A stretch of DNA of 64,000 nt from a virus (IMGVR_UViG_3300008085_000023:1-64000); one strand, 5' to 3'; shown: positions 33,506 to 43,861, counted from the stretch's first letter. A program made the numbers and translations. The notes: generated by a model from the sequence alone, not told the origin.

Positions 33506-33991
33506 CTAATATACCATAGTATGTTGTATTTGTACACCCTTATTTTTCTGAGAGCAATGTGTACATATTTGTGGCGGTTGACGTTGTGTACTGAAGAAAC
33601 CACAGTATTGGCATGTCCGAGCGGCAGTGCGCTCAGCCATACTTATAGCGCCGTTGAAGATATCGATGACGCTTTTGACACTAAAGTTCTTGTAGGGTGT
33701 AATCAACATCGTGTCACCATTCTTAATCCACGTGTAACTGCCATCATCTTCAAGAATAAGCTTGGTCGGATCTACAGTGAAACCATTAGTGTGATACCGC
33801 AATCCGCCAAACTTCACTTTAATCTGTTGAACGATTATGTTGATGCCATAATTGTGACGTCGCTCTGATCTCATCAATTGCAAATCCAACAGAATAGGCC
33901 ACCAACCAAATCCAACACATTCTGTTGGATCTATGTCACCTTCAAACAGCACCGACTTTATCCGTGCACGTAATATTTCTTCACACTGCAT
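33506..33991 (-). CDS. Conserved phage hypothetical protein
   Basis: GW..IL, QIK.KFGGLRY, S/A.RTC..CG motifs. Confidence 0.65.
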   Translation of the reverse strand: MQCEEILRARIKSVLFEGDIDPTECVGFGWWPILLDLQLMRSERRHNYGINIIVQQIKVKFGGLRYHTNGFTVDPTKLILEDDGSYTWIKNGDTMLITPYKNFSVKSVIDIFNGAISMAERTAARTCQYCGFFSTQRQPPQICTHCSQKNKGVQIQHTMVY

Positions 33992-34994
33992 TAGCGAATA
34001 ACCATGTCTTTGCAGCCTTAGCAACTGCAGAGCCTACTTCTTTCTTCTCGAGACCAGACGCCTGAATAACATCAGACTCTTCCTTAACGATATCTTCAAA
34101 CACCCAACGGATGAATGTGCCAATGTCCTTCTGTGTGAAGGCCTCGGGATCGCCATTAGTGATCTCGTGCATACCCTGGTTACAACGGTTGTCCGTTACA
34201 ACTGTAGTAACGAATTCCTTTATAGAATTCACCTTCTCAACATCAACTGCAGCGAGAGTTTTCACCTTAGATGTGCTATGCTTCTCACCCTTAACCTTAA
34301 ACCAAAAGCGTGAATGATTCCATTTAGGCTCAACAGGCGTCCAGACAATTCCTTCACCAATGCCATTAGCACCAAAAAATGCTGACACTGGACATTTAGC
34401 TTCGACGAGCTTTGTAAGCTCAGCTAACTGATTCTGAATTTCCTCAGGATTGTTGAAGTCAATAGTTGACCAGAATGTAGCAAAACGCGTATTGCTGTAG
34501 ATGCCAAGTTCTGGTAGGTCAATACATTCACGTTCAGACGGGCTAAGCCAACGATCGTTGTGCTTCACTGCGAAAATAACAAACATCTTATCAACCTGAT
34601 TGAGTGCAACGCCCTTTTGGATACTGCCCCCGCACCATTCACCAAAGACGGCAACAACGTTGTGGCCTTCAACGGGCCAAAGGTCTGGGAGTGTCTTTTG
34701 TAGTTCGGCAAGCTTAGGTTCCATGAATGCAGCGAAGCCTGCATTGTCATCTTTCCATGAGATTATACGCTTCCGAGATTGGATATGGCACTCATCATTG
34801 ATGAGATCAAACACTACTGCGGCGTTGGTTCCATGAAGCTTGACAGTGCCACGGTATGGAATAACAGGTTTAGGCTGAGTGTAATCAAGCACCTCATCGC
34901 CGTGAAACGTGGTACCGACGAATGCAGATGTCCGTTGGACTTCCTTAACTACATTACGAAACTGATTAATTTCTGGGAACTTAATGAATTCCAT
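33981..34994 (-). CDS. ATP-dependent RNA ligase (Rnl2-like)
   Basis: Motif I KLHGTN, QSR, FGEW.G, FAVK, GEGIVW, FKVKGEKH. Confidence 0.85.
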   Translation of the reverse strand: MEFIKFPEINQFRNVVKEVQRTSAFVGTTFHGDEVLDYTQPKPVIPYRGTVKLHGTNAAVVFDLINDECHIQSRKRIISWKDDNAGFAAFMEPKLAELQKTLPDLWPVEGHNVVAVFGEWCGGSIQKGVALNQVDKMFVIFAVKHNDRWLSPSERECIDLPELGIYSNTRFATFWSTIDFNNPEEIQNQLAELTKLVEAKCPVSAFFGANGIGEGIVWTPVEPKWNHSRFWFKVKGEKHSTSKVKTLAAVDVEKVNSIKEFVTTVVTDNRCNQGMHEITNGDPEAFTQKDIGTFIRWVFEDIVKEESDVIQASGLEKKEVGSAVAKAAKTWLFANAV

Positions 34995-36970: not shown

Positions 36971-37145
36971 TGTATCTCCTTCACTTACTCATTAATAACA
37001 TCAACACCAAAAATAGAGGGGCTGCTGCCGGCTTGTAACGGCGAGTTAAAAAGACCCGAACCCCCAAGGTCTACCCGCTTGATATCGTGCACTTTACTGC
37101 ATCAACGTGAATCAGAAGCCCCACTGTTACAAGAGGGTTGAGCAA

Positions 37146-37218
37146 AGCTGTAATAGGATTCGAACCTATATCTGTCCGGACAAACTGTCCGCTGTGATTA
37201 CCATTACACCACACCGCT
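37146..37218 (-). ncRNA. tRNA-like element 1 with a non-canonical anticodon arm, within a larger structured RNA (~37010-37335)
   Basis: D arm GTG-TAATGGTAAT-CAC; CGGAC-AGTTT-GTCCG; T arm ATAGG-TTCGAAT-CCTAT; acceptor AGCGGTG/TACAGCT; no CCA. Confidence 0.7.
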
Positions 37219-37351
37219 CATCGCGCCTTGAAGCTTGCTGGCTTCGCTGGCTGATGTCTTCCTGCTTCGGTATTTCTGGGCAGCAACCCTTACTCTCACC
37301 TCAGCGCTTCTTCTCACATCAAATTTCAAAGATCAATTGCTTGATAAAACC

Positions 37352-37437
37352 ATTATACACCAGCTTTTTTAGCATGTACACCATTATATTCAATTATTTT
37401 CACCTGAAAAGCTAAGTCGGGCTCGATTAAGGACTTA
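37352..37437 (-). promoter_or_regulatory. Early promoter plus upstream palindrome (cassette A)
   Basis: TGTACA-N17-TATAAT at 37352-37380; TAAG-N17-CTTA at 37413-37437. Confidence 0.8.
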
Positions 37438-37681
37438 TGCTGAAAAATAGTTTTCGTGATGGTCCGAAAACGGTTGTAGAGATGGTAGAGATGGCTCCCA
37501 CGTGGTAGGAAGCCTCTCCACGTATTACGTACAGGCTGGCTCCTGAGTCACTCTAGAATGCATTGGACTCTCGGGTGTATGTTTACCCTCGTAAAACTGC
37601 AGAAACACTCCTGAATGCATCTCTAATCACGGAGCCCGATATCCGGACGACTTGGGAGACGACCCGAAACTTATTGACAAT

Positions 37682-37927
37682 CTACAGCGGAATAGCTCCA
37701 CCGAATTGTTCTACAATGTGTTTATTCATATGACACATAGCTTCAATGATAGTGGGATTATATATACCACGACCTAGGCGCATCACCTTACCCATTGCAT
37801 ATTTTATACGTTGATCATATGAATCATAGCTTTCCATATTATGTATCATGCAATAACCAACCATGCTATCATGGATTACAGTAGCAATATCTATGATACT
37901 ATATCTGTTAAACGATTCTTCAGACAT
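37682..37927 (-). CDS. Hypothetical protein
   Basis: ORF with AAGGA RBS. Confidence 0.55.
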   Translation of the reverse strand: MSEESFNRYSIIDIATVIHDSMVGYCMIHNMESYDSYDQRIKYAMGKVMRLGRGIYNPTIIEAMCHMNKHIVEQFGGAIPL

Positions 37928-37937
37928 TTAAGTTCCT

Positions 37938-38231
37938 TTAGAAAATGGTGGGTGCCGAAGGAATAACCATCCAATGAGTTAGCGTATCTCCCAGCCAGCA
38001 CTCGTCTCTTCCCTCGTCTCTCCAAAACCATTCACGCGTATCGGCCTCATACCAGACAATCCTAGCGCGATAACCATCCCACCCCATTACTTCGTCTGCG
38101 TTGGGCGGGAGTCGTTCGCAGCAAGGCACCCAACAATCACTTTGACCCGTACAGGAGGAAGTCGGTTTAGGTGGTGGCGGTGGCAGTTTGTTTTTCTCTG
38201 GCGCGTAGCTTCCGTATATCTCTAATTTCAT
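37938..38231 (-). CDS. DUF551-like protein
   Basis: WVPC.ERLP ... THWM.IP..P. Confidence 0.7.
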   Translation of the reverse strand: MKLEIYGSYAPEKNKLPPPPPKPTSSCTGQSDCWVPCCERLPPNADEVMGWDGYRARIVWYEADTREWFWRDEGRDECWLGDTLTHWMVIPSAPTIF

Positions 38232-38434
38232 TTCACATTCAACGCTAATACCATATCCTCTCGGATCTCTTCAGCAGCTTCCCGTCGAGCCTGCTTCTTC
38301 CAATAACGCCGGGTCTTCTGCTTACCGACTGAACGAATAACGTGGCCGGATCGAGTGGCCAGACCATAATGCCGAATATCTTCAACATCGGGCCATTCAA
38401 CACCATCTTCCCGCGGGATACCATATGCTTTCAT
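38228..38434 (-). CDS. Hypothetical protein
   Basis: MKAYG...KK.ARR basic motif; coupled ORF. Confidence 0.55.
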   Translation of the reverse strand: MKAYGIPREDGVEWPDVEDIRHYGLATRSGHVIRSVGKQKTRRYWKKQARREAAEEIREDMVLALNVK

Positions 38435-38446
38435 AACTTCATTCTC

Positions 38447-38641
38447 CTAGAATGTGGCGGTGGCAGCCGTAATCTTCTTCCCGAGCAGAGCGCTCAGGCC
38501 TTCATTCACAGCGTTGGCCATGGCTTGGTTCATATCACCAAACCCATACTGCCGGTGCTTTTCATTTGCCACAGCGATCGCCTCGGCCTTCCGTAGACGG
38601 AAGCGATATTCACCCAACGATTCACCTTCTAACATCTTCAT
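38447..38641 (-). CDS. Hypothetical protein
   Basis: Coupled to a 30-aa ORF (38638-38730) that follows an early promoter. Confidence 0.5.
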   Translation of the reverse strand: MKMLEGESLGEYRFRLRKAEAIAVANEKHRQYGFGDMNQAMANAVNEGLSALLGKKITAATATF

Positions 38642-38751
38642 ATCCGTGACGCATCCTGTATTAGTACGTTCCCAATTACAGCCAGCACCTTCAGCACTGT
38701 TTGCCCGATCTCTCTGCTTTGTTCGTTCATTATATTACTTCCTCTGATATT

Positions 38752-38837
38752 ATTATAAACCAGTTTCTGCAGCTTGTACACCATTATTTTCATTTATTTT
38801 CGGCTAAAAAGCTAAGGTCCAGCTTATCAAGCACTTA
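38752..38837 (-). promoter_or_regulatory. Early promoter plus upstream palindrome (cassette B)
   Basis: TGTACA-N17-TATAAT at 38752-38780; TAAG-N17-CTTA at 38813-38837. Confidence 0.8.
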
Positions 38838-39341
38838 TGCTGAAAAATAGTTTGTGGGCAGTAATAACGATGGTAGAGTAGATGTGTAAGTGGTTGATAC
38901 GCGGATGGCTCCTGAGTCACTCTTCAGGCCATTTTGCCCTTTTTGAAGGTAAATATACATCCTACGACTCAAAATGCTCTCAGGAGTGATTCCGGACTGC
39001 AGATTTGACTGTAGAGAGATTCTTAAGCTAGCATGCTAAAACACCAACGATAACCACGATCATGTGGGCCTTTATCGGTCGTGCCGGCAGGATTAAATAT
39101 ACAACCATCGTTACGAAACATGCTCACATAATATTCATATGGTTCTACACGGCGAGGCTAACGAAATTTGAGGGGTGGGATAAAGCCGTTAAGTTGATCT
39201 TTACGCGAGAAACGGATGGCTGATATGCATGTGCTAATAATATTTTGATGATAGTTAATCTTTTCATGCTCTAATAAACAGTAGTGTTGTTGTATACATT
39301 ATCTCGTCATCCTTTATGTTTTGAATCTAACATTGAGAAGA

Positions 39342-39707
39342 TCACACCCAAAAGTGGTATCTCCTGCACTTGGCGCAGGATTGACCTATAGGCACACCAT
39401 GTTGACATTGACCAGAGTATGGCCGATCAATAGCGTCCTTCTCCAAGGGTGCATCCACCTTTTGAGGCGGTGAACTTTGCTCGGCCGCTGTTTGGATAAT
39501 AGCCCTAAGCCGAACAATTTCAGCATTGGCTTCTGCAACAATCTTATCATAGTATTCTGTAGAGACGGTGTTGAGCTCAAGCAGTTGATAGTCGTGATAA
39601 CTGACGTACGTACCATTCAGATTATCAACAAACATACACGCTCTGCTGTCGTCCACGGGATCCACATGTGGATCGTATCTTAATACCATAACGTCGATAT
39701 CACTCAT
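39342..39707 (-). CDS. Hypothetical protein
   Basis: Follows the early promoter at 39739-39767; G.YV.Y.DY motif. Confidence 0.6.
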   Translation of the reverse strand: MSDIDVMVLRYDPHVDPVDDSRACMFVDNLNGTYVSYHDYQLLELNTVSTEYYDKIVAEANAEIVRLRAIIQTAAEQSSPPQKVDAPLEKDAIDRPYSGQCQHGVPIGQSCAKCRRYHFWV

Positions 39708-39754
39708 AATAATTTCCTATTCTTAACTTCATAGAATTATTATACCATGGTTTG

Positions 39755-40609
39755 TCAAATTTGTACACCGTTATTTTTATAGGCATTGAGATACCCCTCG
39801 ACAATGAAGTATTCCTTTGAGAGTGTCCCATCCGTAAAGTAGTTGAATGAATTGACGGATGTTTCGACTGTCCTCCAAAAGTTTACTTCCTTGCCGTAGA
39901 TATTGAACACTTCAGCGCTATAAAAATCAGCAATCTTTTTATGTGTCTTTATGAACTCGGTATAGAAGCTTTCATACAGGTCGATATCCTGCTGCAACTC
40001 TTCTTGACGAGTGTCTGTAGAGATCCGACGAACATGAATGTATTTGACGTTATCGAATTTAGAAATATACTTCACCAACTCATCAAACTCAACGACGTTA
40101 TAACGGTTCAGTACAATAGAGACACGTACGTTATCTCCGCTCCTGGGTATAATATAATCCCAATCAGGTATATCACTTCGACCCATAATCTTTTTGTTAG
40201 TCTCGGGATTCAGACTGTGAATGGAATACCCAATCTCATCCTGCATTAGATCGATGAGGCACATCTTCTCCTGCGCTAAATATCCATTCGTTCGAACACC
40301 AACTGTAAAGCCATAGTGTTGAAGGTGGATCAACAAAGACCTAAGATGCTCGGACTTATATTGTAGTCCGTCAGCAGTCTGACCGGTGAGATATAATTTC
40401 GTTATGCCGTTCTTAGCACACTCTGACAGAAACTCATTGAAGTTTTTCCATTGCGTCCATGGGACATCCAATTGGTTCTTCCCTGCGAGCTCATTACAGA
40501 TATCCTTGCCGAGGCAAAAGTAGCAATTTGCATTGCATTGGCCCAGTAGGTTAATGTTTGCAAACGTTGGCGCTTTACGATTTCGATTCTTTTTGATTTC
40601 AATTTTCAT
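39755..40609 (-). CDS. Radical SAM enzyme
   Basis: CNANCYFC (CxxxCxxC), LTG...D, RTNG, YSIHS. Confidence 0.85.
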   Translation of the reverse strand: MKIEIKKNRNRKAPTFANINLLGQCNANCYFCLGKDICNELAGKNQLDVPWTQWKNFNEFLSECAKNGITKLYLTGQTADGLQYKSEHLRSLLIHLQHYGFTVGVRTNGYLAQEKMCLIDLMQDEIGYSIHSLNPETNKKIMGRSDIPDWDYIIPRSGDNVRVSIVLNRYNVVEFDELVKYISKFDNVKYIHVRRISTDTRQEELQQDIDLYESFYTEFIKTHKKIADFYSAEVFNIYGKEVNFWRTVETSVNSFNYFTDGTLSKEYFIVEGYLNAYKNNGVQI

Positions 40610-40610
40610 A

Positions 40611-40886
40611 TTAGTGCTTATATAAAGTGTAGAATGAATTCTTCGTCTTAAAACGAATATGATCGTTAGTAATTTCTAAGATCTCTGTGATTACCGTTGT
40701 GCACCACCAGTCCCTAGATGAAAACATCCCACCTGTAACTGTACCAATATATAATCCGAATCCCAAAAGCGATTCGGGATTTCCATCCCAACTATGCATA
40801 CTATCGCTCAGGTTCGCTGGTATAAGATTTAAGACAGAACCATAGTGTCCTTCGCCATCGCGATCTCTAACTAATCTTGCCATCAC
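40611..40886 (-). CDS. Hypothetical protein
   Basis: DWW.TT.ITEI....F.T.NS.Y.L phage motif. Confidence 0.6.
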   Translation of the reverse strand: MMARLVRDRDGEGHYGSVLNLIPANLSDSMHSWDGNPESLLGFGLYIGTVTGGMFSSRDWWCTTVITEILEITNDHIRFKTKNSFYTLYKH

Positions 40887-41079
40887 TCATCTCTTTCAAT
40901 ATTTCGTATAGTGATTTAACTTCAAAAAGTAAGAACAATTCGTGAGGCTTCACTCCCGGATGTTTCGACGATAGATACGTATTAGCATTACGCTTTCGAG
41001 TAAAACACAGTTCAGGATATACCAGCTTTTGTGTTGTTCGATTAACAATTAACCATTTATCCTTTGTGCACACTTTCAT
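40867..41079 (-). CDS. Hypothetical protein
   Basis: ORF in an early operon. Confidence 0.5.
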   Translation of the reverse strand: MKVCTKDKWLIVNRTTQKLVYPELCFTRKRNANTYLSSKHPGVKPHELFLLFEVKSLYEILKEMSDGKIS

Positions 41080-41272
41080 TTTACGAGACCCGTTGTGTAT
41101 AGTTGTAGTAGAGAGTCACTCCAATAGCCCACATGACACTGATGACCGGATTAATGTATATACACACCAACATCATGGCGAGTGTCTCAGGAGTGAACTG
41201 GAGAGCCGCCGTAGCGATTCGATATGCGAGTAATTGCAGCTTATTCATGTTTTTCTTTCTGTTGTTTGTAGA

Positions 41273-41470
41273 TTACCAGGATTCAGAGACCATGGGTTCT
41301 TTGCCTAAGGCGTTCGTTATGTCAGCCAATAATTCGTATACGATACCACGATCAATGGGGATTCGTTCATGAGCCTCATTAATTGTCCACGCTTCTTTAG
41401 GTGTAATCACATGCAGCACACTATGAATTGTAGCGCTGAAGCACTTGGGAGTGTCTGAATAGATATCCAT
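41273..41470 (-). CDS. Hypothetical protein
   Basis: ORF in an early operon. Confidence 0.5.
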   Translation of the reverse strand: MDIYSDTPKCFSATIHSVLHVITPKEAWTINEAHERIPIDRGIVYELLADITNALGKEPMVSESW

Positions 41471-41628
41471 TACAGAGCCGCCTTCTTCTGATTAATGTGG
41501 TAACATGCCGGAACCATCTGCTCAAGAGAGCGGAAGAATGCTGACGCAGTATCTCCATTGGCGATGCATTTCTGCATGCGTTCCACGATCTGGCGAGTTG
41601 TCATTTTCTTGGTCTTCATAGTTTTCTC

Positions 41629-41835
41629 CTACAGGTTAAACGCTTTCTTCAGCGCCGCTATTATTTCAATAGCTTTTTCTTTATCAACGTCAACAGACGT
41701 CTCAGTATCAGAACTGTAATGATCACATGCGTGTTCAGTGAATTCAAAATATGCATGATTATCGAAACGTTCCCAAATATCAATTGACAGTTTCAGTGTG
41801 CTTCCAATATCGACTTCGTTTTGTTCATTGGTCAT
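41629..41835 (-). CDS. Hypothetical protein
   Basis: Start reassigned to MTNEQ (GGAGG RBS), ATGA overlap with the upstream gene. Confidence 0.55.
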   Translation of the reverse strand: MTNEQNEVDIGSTLKLSIDIWERFDNHAYFEFTEHACDHYSSDTETSVDVDKEKAIEIIAALKKAFNL

Positions 41836-42155
41836 ATTGACCTCCGTTTTGCAGCATTGATAACTGCGGTAATTCTGTGGCGGCCGATCGGATTTGCCGA
41901 GTGGCAAAATGTTCCATCCTTGGGCCAGACATTATTCTCTTCCATCCAACATGCTACGATATAGCCCGTGTCATCGCCGCCGAGGTCATGGTCAAGTGAG
42001 CACTCAATAACATTCTGTGTTTTGAGAATCTCAATTGCCTCAGCGCTAGTCTTAGCGACAACCCAATCCCGAAGTCCAGAAAACACTGGATTGCGGATAT
42101 CATCCACGTATAGCCGTATTGGAGCTGTATTAGTTTTATTAACTTTAAAATTCAT
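41832..42155 (-). CDS. Cyclic-phosphate-processing receiver-like domain protein
   Basis: LYVDDIR, SLDHDLG..DTGY, HSANP.G; follows the early promoter at 42162-42190. Confidence 0.8.
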   Translation of the reverse strand: MNFKVNKTNTAPIRLYVDDIRNPVFSGLRDWVVAKTSAEAIEILKTQNVIECSLDHDLGGDDTGYIVACWMEENNVWPKDGTFCHSANPIGRHRITAVINAAKRRSI

Positions 42156-42204
42156 AGAATTATTATACCACACTTTCTAAATTCTGTACACCATTATTTT
42201 AACT

Positions 42205-42537
42205 CTACAGAAAGGCGTCAAATACGCGATTTAGAGTTGTCGTCGCTTGATCCTGATCGCGATCACAACTAAGGATCTCAAAATCGGGATACATGTCTAC
42301 GTCCTCGCCATCCCGGCGCCAACCTTTAAGCAGGTGAGCAGCTGCTGATTTGTGACCGGCGAAATAATCCTCTGCAGCCGAGACTGCACCATTGATGCTA
42401 TACGTCAGAACGCTGTGCTCGAGCCAACGACATCCTGTCGTAGTTTCATGAAAGAAGATAACCTCGATGTTATTCGGTTCTGATAGTACGCTCATTATAT
42501 GCTCCTGATTTCGCGAATAATGCCCTGGAAGTGCCAC
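42205..42537 (-). CDS. Hypothetical protein
   Basis: ORF in an early operon; true start is probably MSVLSE. Confidence 0.5.
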   Translation of the reverse strand: MALPGHYSRNQEHIMSVLSEPNNIEVIFFHETTTGCRWLEHSVLTYSINGAVSAAEDYFAGHKSAAAHLLKGWRRDGEDVDMYPDFEILSCDRDQDQATTTLNRVFDAFL

Positions 42538-42786
42538 ATAAAACGACGATCCTTTTTATATGCTAGGACATGTAGCATGGTCCGCCCGAATCTTGACGAT
42601 GCGAATTGTAATTGGCGATCGATACTCATGTTACGACTTCTTTACTTCTTCAGCCATACGCCGGGCATTCCGATGGATCTTGTTGGCCAAGGCCCGATCT
42701 TCCTGGGCCATCTTGTCAAGCTGCTTCTTCCATTGATTCGTCTTCATACTGTATCCCTTTGCTGTTACCGTTATTCCTCTGATATC

Positions 42787-42992
42787 ATTATAAACCAGTT
42801 CTCAGTAAAAGTACACCATTATTTTTCAGTTTTTAGCACTTTTTTGTTAAGTAGGGCTCCAGAAGGGACTTACACAATCACTTATTTTCGCGAAAAAAGG
42901 CCCTCAAGTGGTCCTGAATGAACACTGCATCTAAAATAGGGTTAAATTACACTAAATCAGGTACTTATGCATTCAGGACCACTTGAGGGCCT
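42787..42992 (-). promoter_or_regulatory. Early promoter plus two palindromes and a 23-bp perfect inverted repeat (cassette C)
   Basis: TGTACT-N17-TATAAT at 42787-42815; palindromes at 42848-42872 and 42943-42967; IR 42898-42920/42970-42992. Confidence 0.8.
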
Positions 42993-43035
42993 CGATTTGC
43001 CGTCAAATCGGTAGTTGTAGTTGTAGTTGTGGTTG

Positions 43036-43111
43036 TGGTAGGCTTAGTGGGAGTCGAACCCACGACCTGCAGAGTAGGAATCTGCTGCTCTGTCCTCTGA
43101 GCTATAAGCCT
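43036..43111 (-). tRNA. tRNA-Arg(CCT)
   Basis: Full cloverleaf; acceptor AGGCTTA/TAAGCCT; loop TT-CCT-AC; GGTTCGACTCC; encoded CCA. Confidence 0.93.
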
Positions 43112-43144
43112 ATAACGTGTTTACATCGTCATTAGTTGCTGTAT

Positions 43145-43345
43145 TCATCGCCAAAATCCTCCAAACAGTTCTTCAAAACCAGTAGGATATGCCGGAGCTT
43201 TCGTGTGTTCAGAACTCTTACTTGTATCCCATACCACCTCAACGAGTCGCTTCAGTTGAGATACCGGTAGTGACACACGTCCCTTGCCGATCAACTTATT
43301 TTGATCAGCAATATAATTCCACATCTGTTGTTTGTTCGTTATCAT
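43145..43345 (-). CDS. Hypothetical protein between the tRNAs
   Basis: MITNKQQ...GFEELFGGFWR; upstream extension of the ORF overlaps tRNA-Pro. Confidence 0.5.
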   Translation of the reverse strand: MITNKQQMWNYIADQNKLIGKGRVSLPVSQLKRLVEVVWDTSKSSEHTKAPAYPTGFEELFGGFWR

Positions 43346-43352
43346 AATAAAA

Positions 43353-43430
43353 TGGTCGGAGTAGAGGGATTCGAACCCCCGGCCCTCGCGTCCCAAACGC
43401 GATGCGCTAACCAGACTGCGCTATACTCCG
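43353..43430 (-). tRNA. tRNA-Pro(TGG)
   Basis: CGGAGTA...TCGCG-TTTGGGA-CGCGA...GGTTCGAATCC...TACTCCG-ACCA. Confidence 0.95.
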
Positions 43431-43461
43431 TAAAAAGGTGAGGGCCCCGAAGGGAAGAGCA

Positions 43462-43532
43462 ATTGAATATGGGGATTCGAACCTCATGATTCCAGCTAAA
43501 CGCTGGTGTCTTGCCAATTAGACGAATTCATT
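43462..43532 (-). ncRNA. tRNA-like element 2 with a 5-nt anticodon loop, within a larger RNA (~43437-43694)
   Basis: D arm GTCT-AATTGGCA-AGAC; CCAGC-GTTTA-GCTGG; GGTTCGAATCC T loop; no CCA; late promoter at 43710-43717. Confidence 0.7.
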
Positions 43533-43861
43533 ACCTGTTTTTTAACATTGCCGTGTTACGTCACGGGTATCTCTTAAGGACAAACTATCAGGGCGGCAAC
43601 CCTTACACGTTCCTCCAACCACTCAAAAATCAACATTTACCGGATGACCCCTAATCCATCGTCTCCGATATCGACCTCATCTCTTGGCCCTACCACTGTT
43701 CTGTTATAATATTTATATATCAAATTGGCTCGGATTATATTATTTTACATGGTAACCCGAGAAGACCCATGAACTTTTAGGATGATCTTTCTGCAACTTT
43801 CGCGATTGGACCTGTTCGTACTCGTTCATCCTTGTTGCAACACAGCTTGTTCGCTGTAAGA

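What the first reader, a model, noticed from the sequence alone, without database searches (positions are those of the whole stretch)
37130..43694. Two divergent copies of an unrecognised ncRNA carrying a tRNA-like domain with no normal anticodon loop
Seen: two loci 6.3 kb apart (~37130-37300 and ~43437-43694, minus strand) share one layout. Each has a 16-nt motif GTAAGGGTTGCYGCCC (37278-37293, 43591-43606; hairpin GGGU-UGCY-GCCC), then ~58-59 nt of unrelated sequence, then a cloverleaf with good D and T loops. Each anticodon stem is a perfect 5 bp closed by only 5 nt (AGTTT; GTTTA), there is no CCA, and TTGCTC..CCCT follows and can pair with the 5' GTAA region. Stem sequences differ while pairing, spacing and flanks are kept, which argues against two independently decayed tRNAs. 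Copy 1 follows an early promoter. Copy 2 follows a late promoter and is closed by GGTAGGGCC/GGCCCTCACC plus T5. Inference: a non-decoding tRNA mimic, for example a decoy for anticodon nucleases or elbow-binding proteins, or an RNP scaffold.
Basis: partly seen in the sequence, partly recalled or inferred. Interest (0 to 1): 0.8.

Follow-up and report, generated by a model that had tools for sequence, protein, structure and literature searches.

The report
Phage tRNA-shaped RNA that cannot decode
An uncultured T4-like phage carries two diverged copies of a folded RNA in which a complete tRNA-shaped body, with a stub instead of an anticodon loop, is clamped at its acceptor end by two hairpins with complementary loops; it is a real, apparently uncatalogued tRNA mimic of unknown job, known so far from only two related phages.

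Summary
Both loci have the exact 16-mer, a cloverleaf 58-59 nt later, a 5-bp "anticodon" stem closed by 5 nt, no CCA, and TTGCTC..CCC exactly 10 nt after the T-loop. Rfam sees only "tRNA" (38.6 and 28.7 bits, threshold 29). ARAGORN calls copy 1 tRNA-Asn.

It does not decode. The one orthologue found (metagenome contig L105, 81% identical) replaces the loop with a GUGA tetraloop. It keeps all four tRNA stems through compensatory changes, and its minimum-free-energy fold is the proposed model (z = -2.9). The phage also has about 37 normal tRNAs, including tRNA-Asn(GUU), plus a tmRNA.

The "unrelated" linker is structured. It holds a 5-bp hairpin whose 6-nt loop CRGCAA complements the UUGCYG loop inside the 16-mer. 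The spacing is 40-41 nt, with U:A in copy 1 and C:G in copy 2. The 5' and 3' flanks pair, extend the acceptor stem and leave no free end.

Best reading: a stable tRNA-body mimic, made early (copy 1) and late (copy 2). It is comparable in kind to phage T4 RNAC but has no sequence homology to it. An anticodon-nuclease decoy is unlikely, because the loop is not conserved. No further homologues and no expression data were obtained. This scan has noted similar tRNA-module RNAs in other phages.

The parts
37352..37410 (-). Two tandem sigma70-like (early-type) promoters in front of copy 1
   Evidence: TTTTCA-16-TATAAT and TGTACA-17-TATAAT. They lie behind a terminator-like hairpin at 37471-37450. The region is 85% identical in L105.
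37324..37335 (-). boxA-like leader TGATCTTTGAAA
   Evidence: Read; invariant in L105. The resemblance to rrn/lambda boxA is from memory and was not tested.
37290..37302 (-). Copy 1, 5' strands of clamp helix P1 (GAGG ... GAGUAA)
   Evidence: Pairs with 37133-37145. Invariant between copies, so there is no covariation.
37278..37293 (-). Copy 1, 16-mer. Hairpin P2 is GGG-UUGCUG-CCC, or GGGU-UGCU-GCCC
37219..37256 (-). Copy 1, P3 arm: outer stem CAUC/GAUG, inner hairpin GAAGC-CAGCAA-GCUUC. The loop (37235-37240) complements the P2 loop
   Evidence: In L105 the outer stem is a perfect 9 bp.
37145..37218 (-). Copy 1, tRNA-shaped domain: 7-8 bp acceptor (one G.A mismatch), D arm, 5-bp stem with 5-nt loop AGUUU, T arm
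37133..37145 (-). Copy 1, 3' strands of P1 (UUGCUC AAC CCUC). They run on from the acceptor 3' strand with no gap
37119..37137 (-). Copy 1, alternative local 3' hairpin CCCU...GGGG (competes with P1a)
   Evidence: Read. The equivalents are CCCCU-CGUAACA-GGGGG in L105 and CCC-UUCG-GGG in copy 2.
36971..37118 (-). Conserved non-coding tail of the copy 1 unit, up to the ATG of the 78-aa ORF. It includes a hairpin plus U5 at about 37045-37075
   Evidence: blocks identical in L105, and the hairpin stem differs between the two. It may or may not be part of the RNA.
43710..43717 (-). TATAAATA, a T4-type late promoter motif, in front of copy 2
43686..43694 (-). Copy 2, outer closing stem, 5' strand GGUAGGGCC
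   Evidence: the minimum-free-energy fold and the centroid both pair it with 43437-43446.
43604..43615 (-). Copy 2, 5' strands of P1 (GAGG ... GUGUA)
   Evidence: one U.U mismatch.
43591..43606 (-). Copy 2, 16-mer. P2 is GGG-UUGCCG-CCC
43543..43558 (-). Copy 2, P3 hairpin UAACA-CGGCAA-UGUUA. The loop (43548-43553) complements the P2 loop
   Evidence: The local hairpin CCGUG/CACGG competes with it.
43462..43532 (-). Copy 2, tRNA-shaped domain: acceptor with an A.A mismatch, D arm, CCAGC-GUUUA-GCUGG, 6-bp T stem with an A.C mismatch
43450..43461 (-). Copy 2, 3' strands of P1 (UGCUC UUC CCUU). They overlap the hairpin CCC-UUCG-GGG (43445-43454)
43432..43446 (-). Copy 2, outer closing stem 3' strand GGCCCUCACC plus U5. 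tRNA-Pro starts at 43430

Best explanation
**Shown**
- The two loci encode paralogous structured RNAs of about 175 nt at the core. Copy 2 has a further outer closing stem, giving about 255 nt.
- Each holds a complete tRNA-shaped body: acceptor, D arm with G18/G19, T arm UUCGAAU, and a 5-bp 'anticodon' stem.
- That stem is capped by only 4-5 nt of non-conserved sequence, so the RNA cannot read codons.

**Supported by comparison**
- The acceptor 3' strand runs straight into helix P1 (UUGCUC..CCUC pairing with GAGG..GAGUAA).
- The acceptor 5' strand abuts a hairpin arm, P3.
- Together with hairpin P2 (inside the 16-mer) this makes a four-way junction that buries the acceptor end.
- The 6-nt loops of P2 (UUGCYG) and P3 (CRGCAA) are exact complements that covary between the copies. 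This fits a loop-loop kiss.

**Inferred**
- The RNA acts through its tRNA shape, meaning elbow plus stem lengths, and through the strictly conserved 5' motif. It does not act through an anticodon or a chargeable end.
- My best guess is a stable tRNA-body mimic that occupies or recruits a factor recognising tRNA bodies. That factor could be a processing or modification enzyme, or a body-recognising host defence or phage protein.
- It is supplied early by copy 1 (sigma70-type promoters) and late by copy 2 (TATAAATA, at the head of a tRNA-Pro/tRNA-Arg unit).
For: - **Shared layout.** Exact 16-mer and identical spacings in two otherwise diverged copies.
- **Divergence of the tRNA domains.** They are only 66% identical to each other, no closer than to unrelated tRNAs of the same phage. 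The flanking motifs are nevertheless identical.
- **Orthologue L105.** It has compensatory changes in the acceptor (C-G to U-A, G.A to G-C), the D stem (U-A to C-G, U.U to C-G), the anticodon stem and the T stem (A-U to G-C). Its loop is GUGA, which ARAGORN reports as 'tRNA-???'.
- **Formal count on three sequences.** 86% of cells are paired. Nine pairs have changes on both sides, against 3.3 +/- 1.4 in shuffles (0 of 500 reach the observed value). Slid controls give at most 4.
- **Folding of L105.** The minimum-free-energy and centroid folds equal the model (P1, P2, P3, full cloverleaf). z = -2.93, and 0 of 200 shuffles fold as well.
- **P3 hairpin.** Three of its 5 pairs are doubly changed between the copies. 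The loop complement is unique in each RNA and lies 40, 40 and 41 nt after P2, with Y:R covariation.
- **Not coding.** Indels against L105 are 1, 2, 1, 1, 3 and 4 nt long.
- **Not needed for decoding.** The phage has 34 further canonical tRNAs in two clusters outside the window (about 37 with the two beside copy 2 and a lone tRNA-Gln), including tRNA-Asn(GUU) at 65 bits, plus a tmRNA.
- **Population.** Both copies are 100% identical in every contig that carries them; the only variant, in one contig, lies in the promoter region.
Against: - There are only three sequences from two phage lineages, so P1 and the P2 stem never vary and have no covariation.
- Copy 1 and copy 2 do not fold better than shuffled sequence (z = +0.43 and -0.62), and their minimum-free-energy folds differ from the model.
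- In copy 2 a local hairpin competes with P3.
- The 3' CCC can form a local hairpin instead of P1a.
- No partner protein was identified.
- Copy 2 has no orthologue. The relative's helicase-side contig shows only a tRNA-Met there.
Confidence: 0.55

Rival explanations
1. Cis-acting leader or processing handle. The tRNA-shaped module is there to be cut by RNase P and 3' tRNA-processing enzymes. That would set the ends and stability of the co-transcribed RNAs: the small-ORF and RNA-ligase operon behind copy 1, and tRNA-Pro and tRNA-Arg behind copy 2. It could also release the 5' kissing-hairpin domain as the active small RNA.
For: - Both copies are the first element after a promoter and are followed by genes on the same strand.
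- The acceptor/T stack and elbow nucleotides that RNase P uses are intact.
- T4 makes RNAC and RNAD by processing one tRNA-cluster transcript (PMC2330249).
Against: - A processing handle needs only the acceptor/T minihelix, yet the D arm and a 5-bp anticodon stem are also maintained by compensatory change.
- The 5' side of the acceptor is base-paired into P3 and P1, not a free leader.
- The strict conservation of the 16-mer is left unexplained.
Confidence: 0.2
2. Uncleavable decoy for an anticodon nuclease. The mimic would bind a PrrC-, RloC- or PARIS-type tRNase but could not be cut, because the loop is too short.
For: - The phage carries RNA repair genes near copy 1: an Rnl2-type ligase at 33981-34994.
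- Its relative carries RtcB.
- This suggests the hosts attack tRNAs.
Against: - Anticodon nucleases read the anticodon loop, as summarised for RloC and PrrC in PMC2610378 (listed, not read in depth).
- Here the loop sequence and length change freely: AGUUU, GUGA, GUUUA.
- No defence gene of the host is known.
Confidence: 0.08
3. Two decayed tRNA genes, or scars of recombination or homing at T-loop sequences, with no function of their own.
For: - Copy 1 and copy 2 each have one acceptor mismatch.
- L105 carries an extra T-arm remnant in a 101-nt insert just upstream.
- Homing endonucleases such as SegB target the T-arm motif (PMC2330249).
Against: - Compensatory changes keep every stem in L105, which is cleaner than copy 1.
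- The flanks and spacings are identical in two copies whose tRNA bodies are only 66% alike.
- All three sequences have short loops of different sequence.
Confidence: 0.04
4. Y-RNA-like scaffold (YrlA analogue). The closing stem would bind a Ro60/Rsr-type protein of the host and the tRNA-like module would bind an effector.
For: - The modular design is similar: paired 5' and 3' ends plus a tRNA-like module, with no free CCA end (PMC4201824).
- RNA ligase genes lie nearby, as in the Salmonella RNA-repair operon that links Y RNAs with RtcB (recalled from memory; PMC7790460 was only listed).
- The same phage has a separate element with YrlA-like permuted topology.
Against: - No YrlA (RF02553) hit on either copy even at E <= 10.
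- The arm order is that of a normal tRNA, not the T-acceptor-D order of YrlA.
- The phage has no TROVE gene.
- Neither window copy has a GNCGAAN0-1G motif.
Confidence: 0.06
5. Copy 1 is a working tRNA-Asn(GUU), as ARAGORN and the Rfam threshold would annotate it.
For: Rfam tRNA 38.6 bits against a threshold of 29; ARAGORN 'Asn gtt'.
Against: - A 7-nt loop reading gives A33 and U37, with C32-G38 and A33-U37 able to pair, and a G.G pair at the top of the stem.
- The orthologue has a 4-nt GUGA loop.
- The 3' trailer is paired, with no CCA.
- Canonical tRNA-Asn(GUU) genes already exist in the phage.
Confidence: 0.02

Closest known systems
Phage T4 species 1 RNA (RNAC, 139 nt) and species 2 RNA (RNAD)
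   Same: - Small non-coding RNAs of a T4-type phage, made in or next to tRNA units, with function still unknown (PMC3014915; PMC9697503).
- RNAC has a 5' extension followed by a tRNA-like part: an 8-bp acceptor-like stem, a T arm GGUUCGAAUCC and a non-canonical 'anticodon' arm (read).
- Copy 2, like the T4 RNAs, sits in a tRNA unit and is late.
   Different: - No sequence similarity beyond the T-loop.
- Model R1 gives only 13.5 bits on the RNAC T arm.
- The RNAC sequence shows no counterpart of the 16-mer, and no matching P2/P3 pair or P1 clamp was seen in it; this rests on reading the sequence, not on a fold.
- Copy 1 stands alone behind early promoters.
YrlA / bacterial Y RNAs (Rfam RF02553)
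   Same: Non-decoding tRNA mimic with conserved D and T arms, no free CCA end, modular with a closing stem; also found in phages (PMC4201824).
   Different: - Permuted arm order in YrlA, normal order here.
- No Rfam hit, no Rsr gene, no GNCGAA motif.
Canonical tRNA (Rfam RF00005)
   Same: Cloverleaf, elbow nucleotides, and score near or above the threshold.
   Different: 4-5-nt loop, paired trailer, no CCA, embedded in a larger fold.
ROOL and GOLLD RNAs of phages
   Same: Phage structured RNAs, often near tRNA islands, that use kissing loops. Some of those kisses turned out to be intermolecular (PMC12286853).
   Different: They are far larger (GOLLD often over 800 nt) and have their own Rfam models, none of which matched here.

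Membership tests
tRNA (RF00005), functional decoder | Cloverleaf with conserved D- and T-loop nucleotides | tested here: met
   38.6 and 28.7 bits; G18 G19 and UUCGAAU are present.
tRNA (RF00005), functional decoder | 7-nt anticodon loop with U33 and purine 37 | tested here: not met
   Loops are AGUUU, GUUUA and GUGA. The forced 7-nt reading of copy 1 has A33 and U37.
tRNA (RF00005), functional decoder | Free acceptor end that can carry CCA and be charged | tested here: inconclusive
   No CCA is encoded and the trailer is predicted to pair in P1. Processing was not testable.
T4 RNAC/RNAD | Sequence or profile homology to T4 rnaC or rnaD | tested here: not met
   Local alignment finds only the T-loop. 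R1 gives 13.5 bits on the T arm.
T4 RNAC/RNAD | Encoded in the tRNA cluster and co-transcribed with tRNAs | tested here: inconclusive
   Copy 2 lies directly upstream of tRNA-Pro and tRNA-Arg. Copy 1 does not. Transcription was not observed.
YrlA (RF02553) | Match to the Rfam covariance model | tested here: not met
   No hit at E <= 10 on either copy.
YrlA (RF02553) | Encoded next to a Ro60/Rsr (TROVE) gene | tested here: not met
   PF05731 is absent from the phage record.
YrlA (RF02553) | GNCGAAN0-1G motif near the 5' end | tested here: not met
   Regex search found none in copy 1 or copy 2.
tmRNA | Match to RF00023, and a tag reading frame | tested here: not met
   No hit on the two copies. 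The phage's real tmRNA lies elsewhere.

The most novel reading that the evidence does not exclude
The conserved frame (P1 clamp plus the P2/P3 hairpins with complementary loops) is a portable cage for a tRNA-shaped module. The loop-loop contact may be intermolecular, as in ROOL and GOLLD, so that the RNAs assemble into chains or rings displaying many tRNA elbows. Alternatively the frame binds a dedicated phage protein. Either way this would be a new class of phage tRNA-mimic effector, possibly the functional counterpart of the unexplained T4 RNAC and RNAD and of the other tRNA-module RNAs this scan has met in large phages.
Probability: 0.2. Interest if true: 0.8.

Novelty: new variant of a known kind. 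Interest (0 to 1): 0.6.

Why it matters
T4-type phages have been known since the 1970s to make small stable RNAs with tRNA-like parts, and their function is still unknown. Here is an unrelated sequence family with a much clearer design:

- A full tRNA body kept by selection.
- An anticodon loop that has been deleted.
- An acceptor end that is caged.
- Two expression classes, early and late.

That argues that tRNA shape itself, not decoding, is a recurrent phage tool. It also gives a compact, mutable object of about 175 nt for asking which tRNA-binding factor phages target. In practice, copy 1 would be mis-annotated as tRNA-Asn by standard pipelines.

Tried and rejected
**Searches for more homologues**
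- The exact 16-mer in IMG/VR gave 41 hits, all chance, none with a T-loop downstream.
- Three looser composite patterns in IMG/VR found only ordinary tRNAs or chance matches.
- The metagenome scan gave 16 hits, of which only L105 is real.
- The prokaryote genome scan gave 12 hits, none real.
- blastn against GenBank phages found nothing.
- nhmmer and model R1 over 39 relatives' loci and 21 whole records (20 IMG/VR viral records and T4) found only tRNA-domain partial hits.

**Searches through neighbouring genes**
- The 78-aa ORF has 50 homologues apart from this phage and the L105 lineage. In the eight more distant loci I fetched, there is no RNA upstream of it.
- The 153-aa ORF has almost no homologues.
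- The helicase led to the relative's 60-kb contig, which lacks a copy 2 equivalent.

**Other attempts**
- Population contigs are identical, so they give no microdiversity.
- The downstream 'pseudoknot' helix 37126-37133 with 37032-37039, proposed by another note, gains two mismatches in L105, so I did not include it.
- A hammerhead core was looked for by eye. CUGAGGU is present only in copy 1 and is not the consensus, so it was rejected.
- A parent tRNA was sought, and none is closer than 70%.

Full report
**Setting**

The window is the first 64 kb of a 141,905-bp IMG/VR virus record with direct terminal repeats. It is a T4-type myovirus:
- gp41-type helicase, UvsX, gp32, baseplate genes and an Rnl2-type RNA ligase.
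- The helicase is only about 54% identical to its nearest relatives, the Melnitz methylophage and marine cyanophages.
- TATAAATA, the T4 late-promoter octamer, occurs 11 times in the window. Several occurrences lie just upstream of long ORFs with tail and baseplate (structural) matches.

**Observation**

- The 16-mer is exact at 37278-37293 and 43591-43606 on the minus strand. It occurs nowhere else in the phage, even with two mismatches.
- Rfam finds a tRNA-like domain at 37145-37218 (38.6 bits) and at 43464-43530 (28.7 bits, just under the 29-bit threshold). It finds nothing else at E <= 10.
- ARAGORN calls only copy 1, as tRNA-Asn(gtt).
- The stems CGGAC/GUCCG and CCAGC/GCUGG are perfect and closed by 5 nt.
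- No CCA follows either domain.
- TTGCTC starts exactly 10 nt after GGTTCGAATCC in both copies.
- Copy 1 lies behind two tandem sigma70-like promoters.
- Copy 2 lies behind TATAAATA. It is closed by GGUAGGGCC/GGCCCUCACC plus U5, and tRNA-Pro starts 2 nt later.

**Is it a decoder or a wreck? Neither.**

A pattern scan of metagenome contigs gave one true relative, L105. It comes from a second phage lineage of the same sample series.
- L105 is 81% identical across the whole non-coding unit and the following 78-aa gene.
- In L105 every tRNA stem is kept or improved:
  - Acceptor: C-G to U-A, and G.A to G-C.
  - D stem: U-A to C-G, and U.U to C-G.
  - T stem: A-U to G-C.
  - Anticodon arm: becomes CGGUU-GUGA-GGCCG, a 5-bp stem capped by a GNRA tetraloop. 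ARAGORN reports a 4-base 'anticodon'.
- On the three-sequence alignment, 86% of cells pair. Nine pairs change on both sides, against 3.3 +/- 1.4 in shuffles (0 of 500 reach the observed value). Slid controls give at most 4. This is a lower bound, because two helices are out of register in that alignment.
- The L105 RNA folds into exactly the proposed structure as both minimum-free-energy and centroid fold, with z = -2.93.
- Indels against L105 are 1, 2, 1, 1, 3 and 4 nt long, so nothing is translated.
- The phage has 34 further canonical tRNAs in two clusters at about 90-94 kb, a lone tRNA-Gln and a tmRNA. With the two tRNAs beside copy 2 that makes about 37. These include canonical tRNA-Asn(GUU) genes. 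A crippled Asn decoder is therefore not needed.

**Architecture**

Three elements stand out, numbered here within the roughly 175-nt core.

1. P1 clamp.
   - The 3' strand of the acceptor stem runs on without a break into UUGCUC, a 3-nt bulge and CCUC.
   - These pair with GAGUAA and GAGG at the 5' end.
   - This helix appears in the centroid fold of copy 1, in the alifold consensus and in the L105 minimum-free-energy fold.
2. P3 arm.
   - Its outer stem is CAUC/GAUG in copy 1, a perfect 9 bp in L105, and ACC-GU/AC-GGU in copy 2.
   - Its inner hairpin has 5 bp and a 6-nt loop: GAAGC-CAGCAA-GCUUC in copy 1, and UAACA-CGGCAA-UGUUA in copy 2. Three of the five pairs are changed on both sides.
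3. Complementary loops.
   - The P3 loop is the exact complement of UUGCYG in the 16-mer.
   - The complement occurs once in each RNA, 40, 40 and 41 nt downstream.
   - The single difference between the two 16-mers (U versus C) is matched by A versus G.
   - Read as GGG-UUGCYG-CCC, P2 presents a 6-nt loop, so the two hairpins can kiss.

The result is a four-way junction of P1, P2, P3 and the acceptor stem. One joiner of about 21 nt links P2 and P3. The acceptor end is buried and the tRNA elbow points away.

Caveats:
- P1 and the P2 stem never vary.
- The CCC after UUGCUC can instead form a local hairpin: CCC-UUCG-GGG in copy 2, and CCCCU-CGUAACA-GGGGG in L105.
- In copy 2 the hairpin CCGUG/CACGG competes with P3.
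- Copy 1 and copy 2 are not more stable than shuffled sequence.

**What evolves and what does not**

- The two tRNA bodies are 66% identical, no closer than either is to unrelated tRNAs of the phage.
- The frame motifs and all spacings are nevertheless identical.
- Selection therefore acts on the sequence of the frame and on the shape of the tRNA body. It does not act on the loop where an anticodon would be.
- This speaks against a decoy for anticodon-reading nucleases.
- It speaks for recognition of the tRNA body by some factor, together with a sequence-specific contact to the frame. This step is inference.

**Comparison with known RNAs**

- T4 RNAC (species 1) is the nearest in kind.
  - It is a T4-type phage RNA of unknown function. 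It has a 5' extension and a tRNA-like part with a T arm, an 8-bp acceptor-like stem and an abnormal anticodon arm.
  - There is no sequence homology beyond the T-loop.
- YrlA Y RNAs are tRNA mimics without a free CCA end.
  - They have permuted arm order, an Rsr gene next door and a GNCGAA motif.
  - None of these is met here.
- ROOL and GOLLD show that phage RNAs near tRNA islands use kissing loops, some of them intermolecular. That keeps multimerisation open as a reading.
- Notes of this scan on other genomes describe several non-decoding tRNA-shaped modules joined to hairpins with complementary loops in large phages. I did not test those. They suggest a broader, undescribed class.

**Limits**

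- No further homologues were found in IMG/VR, the metagenome, the genome collections or GenBank phages.
- Copy 2 has no orthologue.
- Population contigs are invariant.
- Expression could not be examined.

**Verdict**

This is a real, structured, non-decoding tRNA mimic with a new architecture. Its distribution is narrow and its function is unknown. I rate it a new variant of a known kind, with interest 0.6.

Noticed in passing
Outside the window: own genome 93080-93173 (-), which is L135:655-748: A second kind of tRNA mimic sits inside the main tRNA cluster. Its order is: closing stem GUUCGG/CCGAAC, T arm, a closed 'acceptor' stem-loop, D arm, then U6. This is the permuted YrlA-type topology. 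The Rfam YrlA score is 25 bits against a threshold of 69. No GNCGAA motif was seen by eye in this stretch, and the phage has no Rsr gene.
   Followed up: partly
Outside the window: own genome about 107835-108202 (-) and 89.7-95.4 kb: The phage encodes a tmRNA (100.5 bits) and 34 tRNAs in two clusters. Some are unusually long: 'tRNA-Pro' of 99 nt and 'tRNA-Asn' of 86 nt.
   Followed up: no
L105:6592-6701 (alignment A3, columns 104-204): The relative has a 101-nt insert between the boxA-like leader and the RNA. The insert contains a lone T-arm remnant, CACGGGTTCGAATCCCC. It may be a scar of recombination at T-loop sequences.
   Followed up: no
window 37019-37029 (-): GGCAGCAGCCC lies about 50 nt before the ATG of the 78-aa ORF. 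It can pair over 11 bp with GGGUUGCUGCC of the copy 1 16-mer. L105 keeps 10 bp with a bulge despite sequence change. It is absent from copy 2 and its meaning is unknown.
   Followed up: partly
window 33981-34994 (-), 39755-40609 (-); L139:14823-15977: An Rnl2-type RNA ligase (PF09414) lies downstream of copy 1 on the same strand, with small ORFs between them. A radical-SAM gene lies between the two copies. The related phage also carries RtcB.
   Followed up: no
window 42889-43000: A long hairpin or palindrome lies just downstream of tRNA-Arg. It gives weak microRNA-precursor-like hits on both strands.
   Followed up: no
L139:7648-9576: In the related phage the UvsX recombinase is in two ORFs (RecA_N and T4_UVSX_C), with an ORF between them that has a faint intein-splicing hit.
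   Followed up: no
window 37324-37340 (-): The leader GCAATTGATCTTTGAAA after the copy 1 promoters is invariant in L105 and resembles boxA. It may guard this long untranslated RNA against Rho termination; that was not tested.
   Followed up: no
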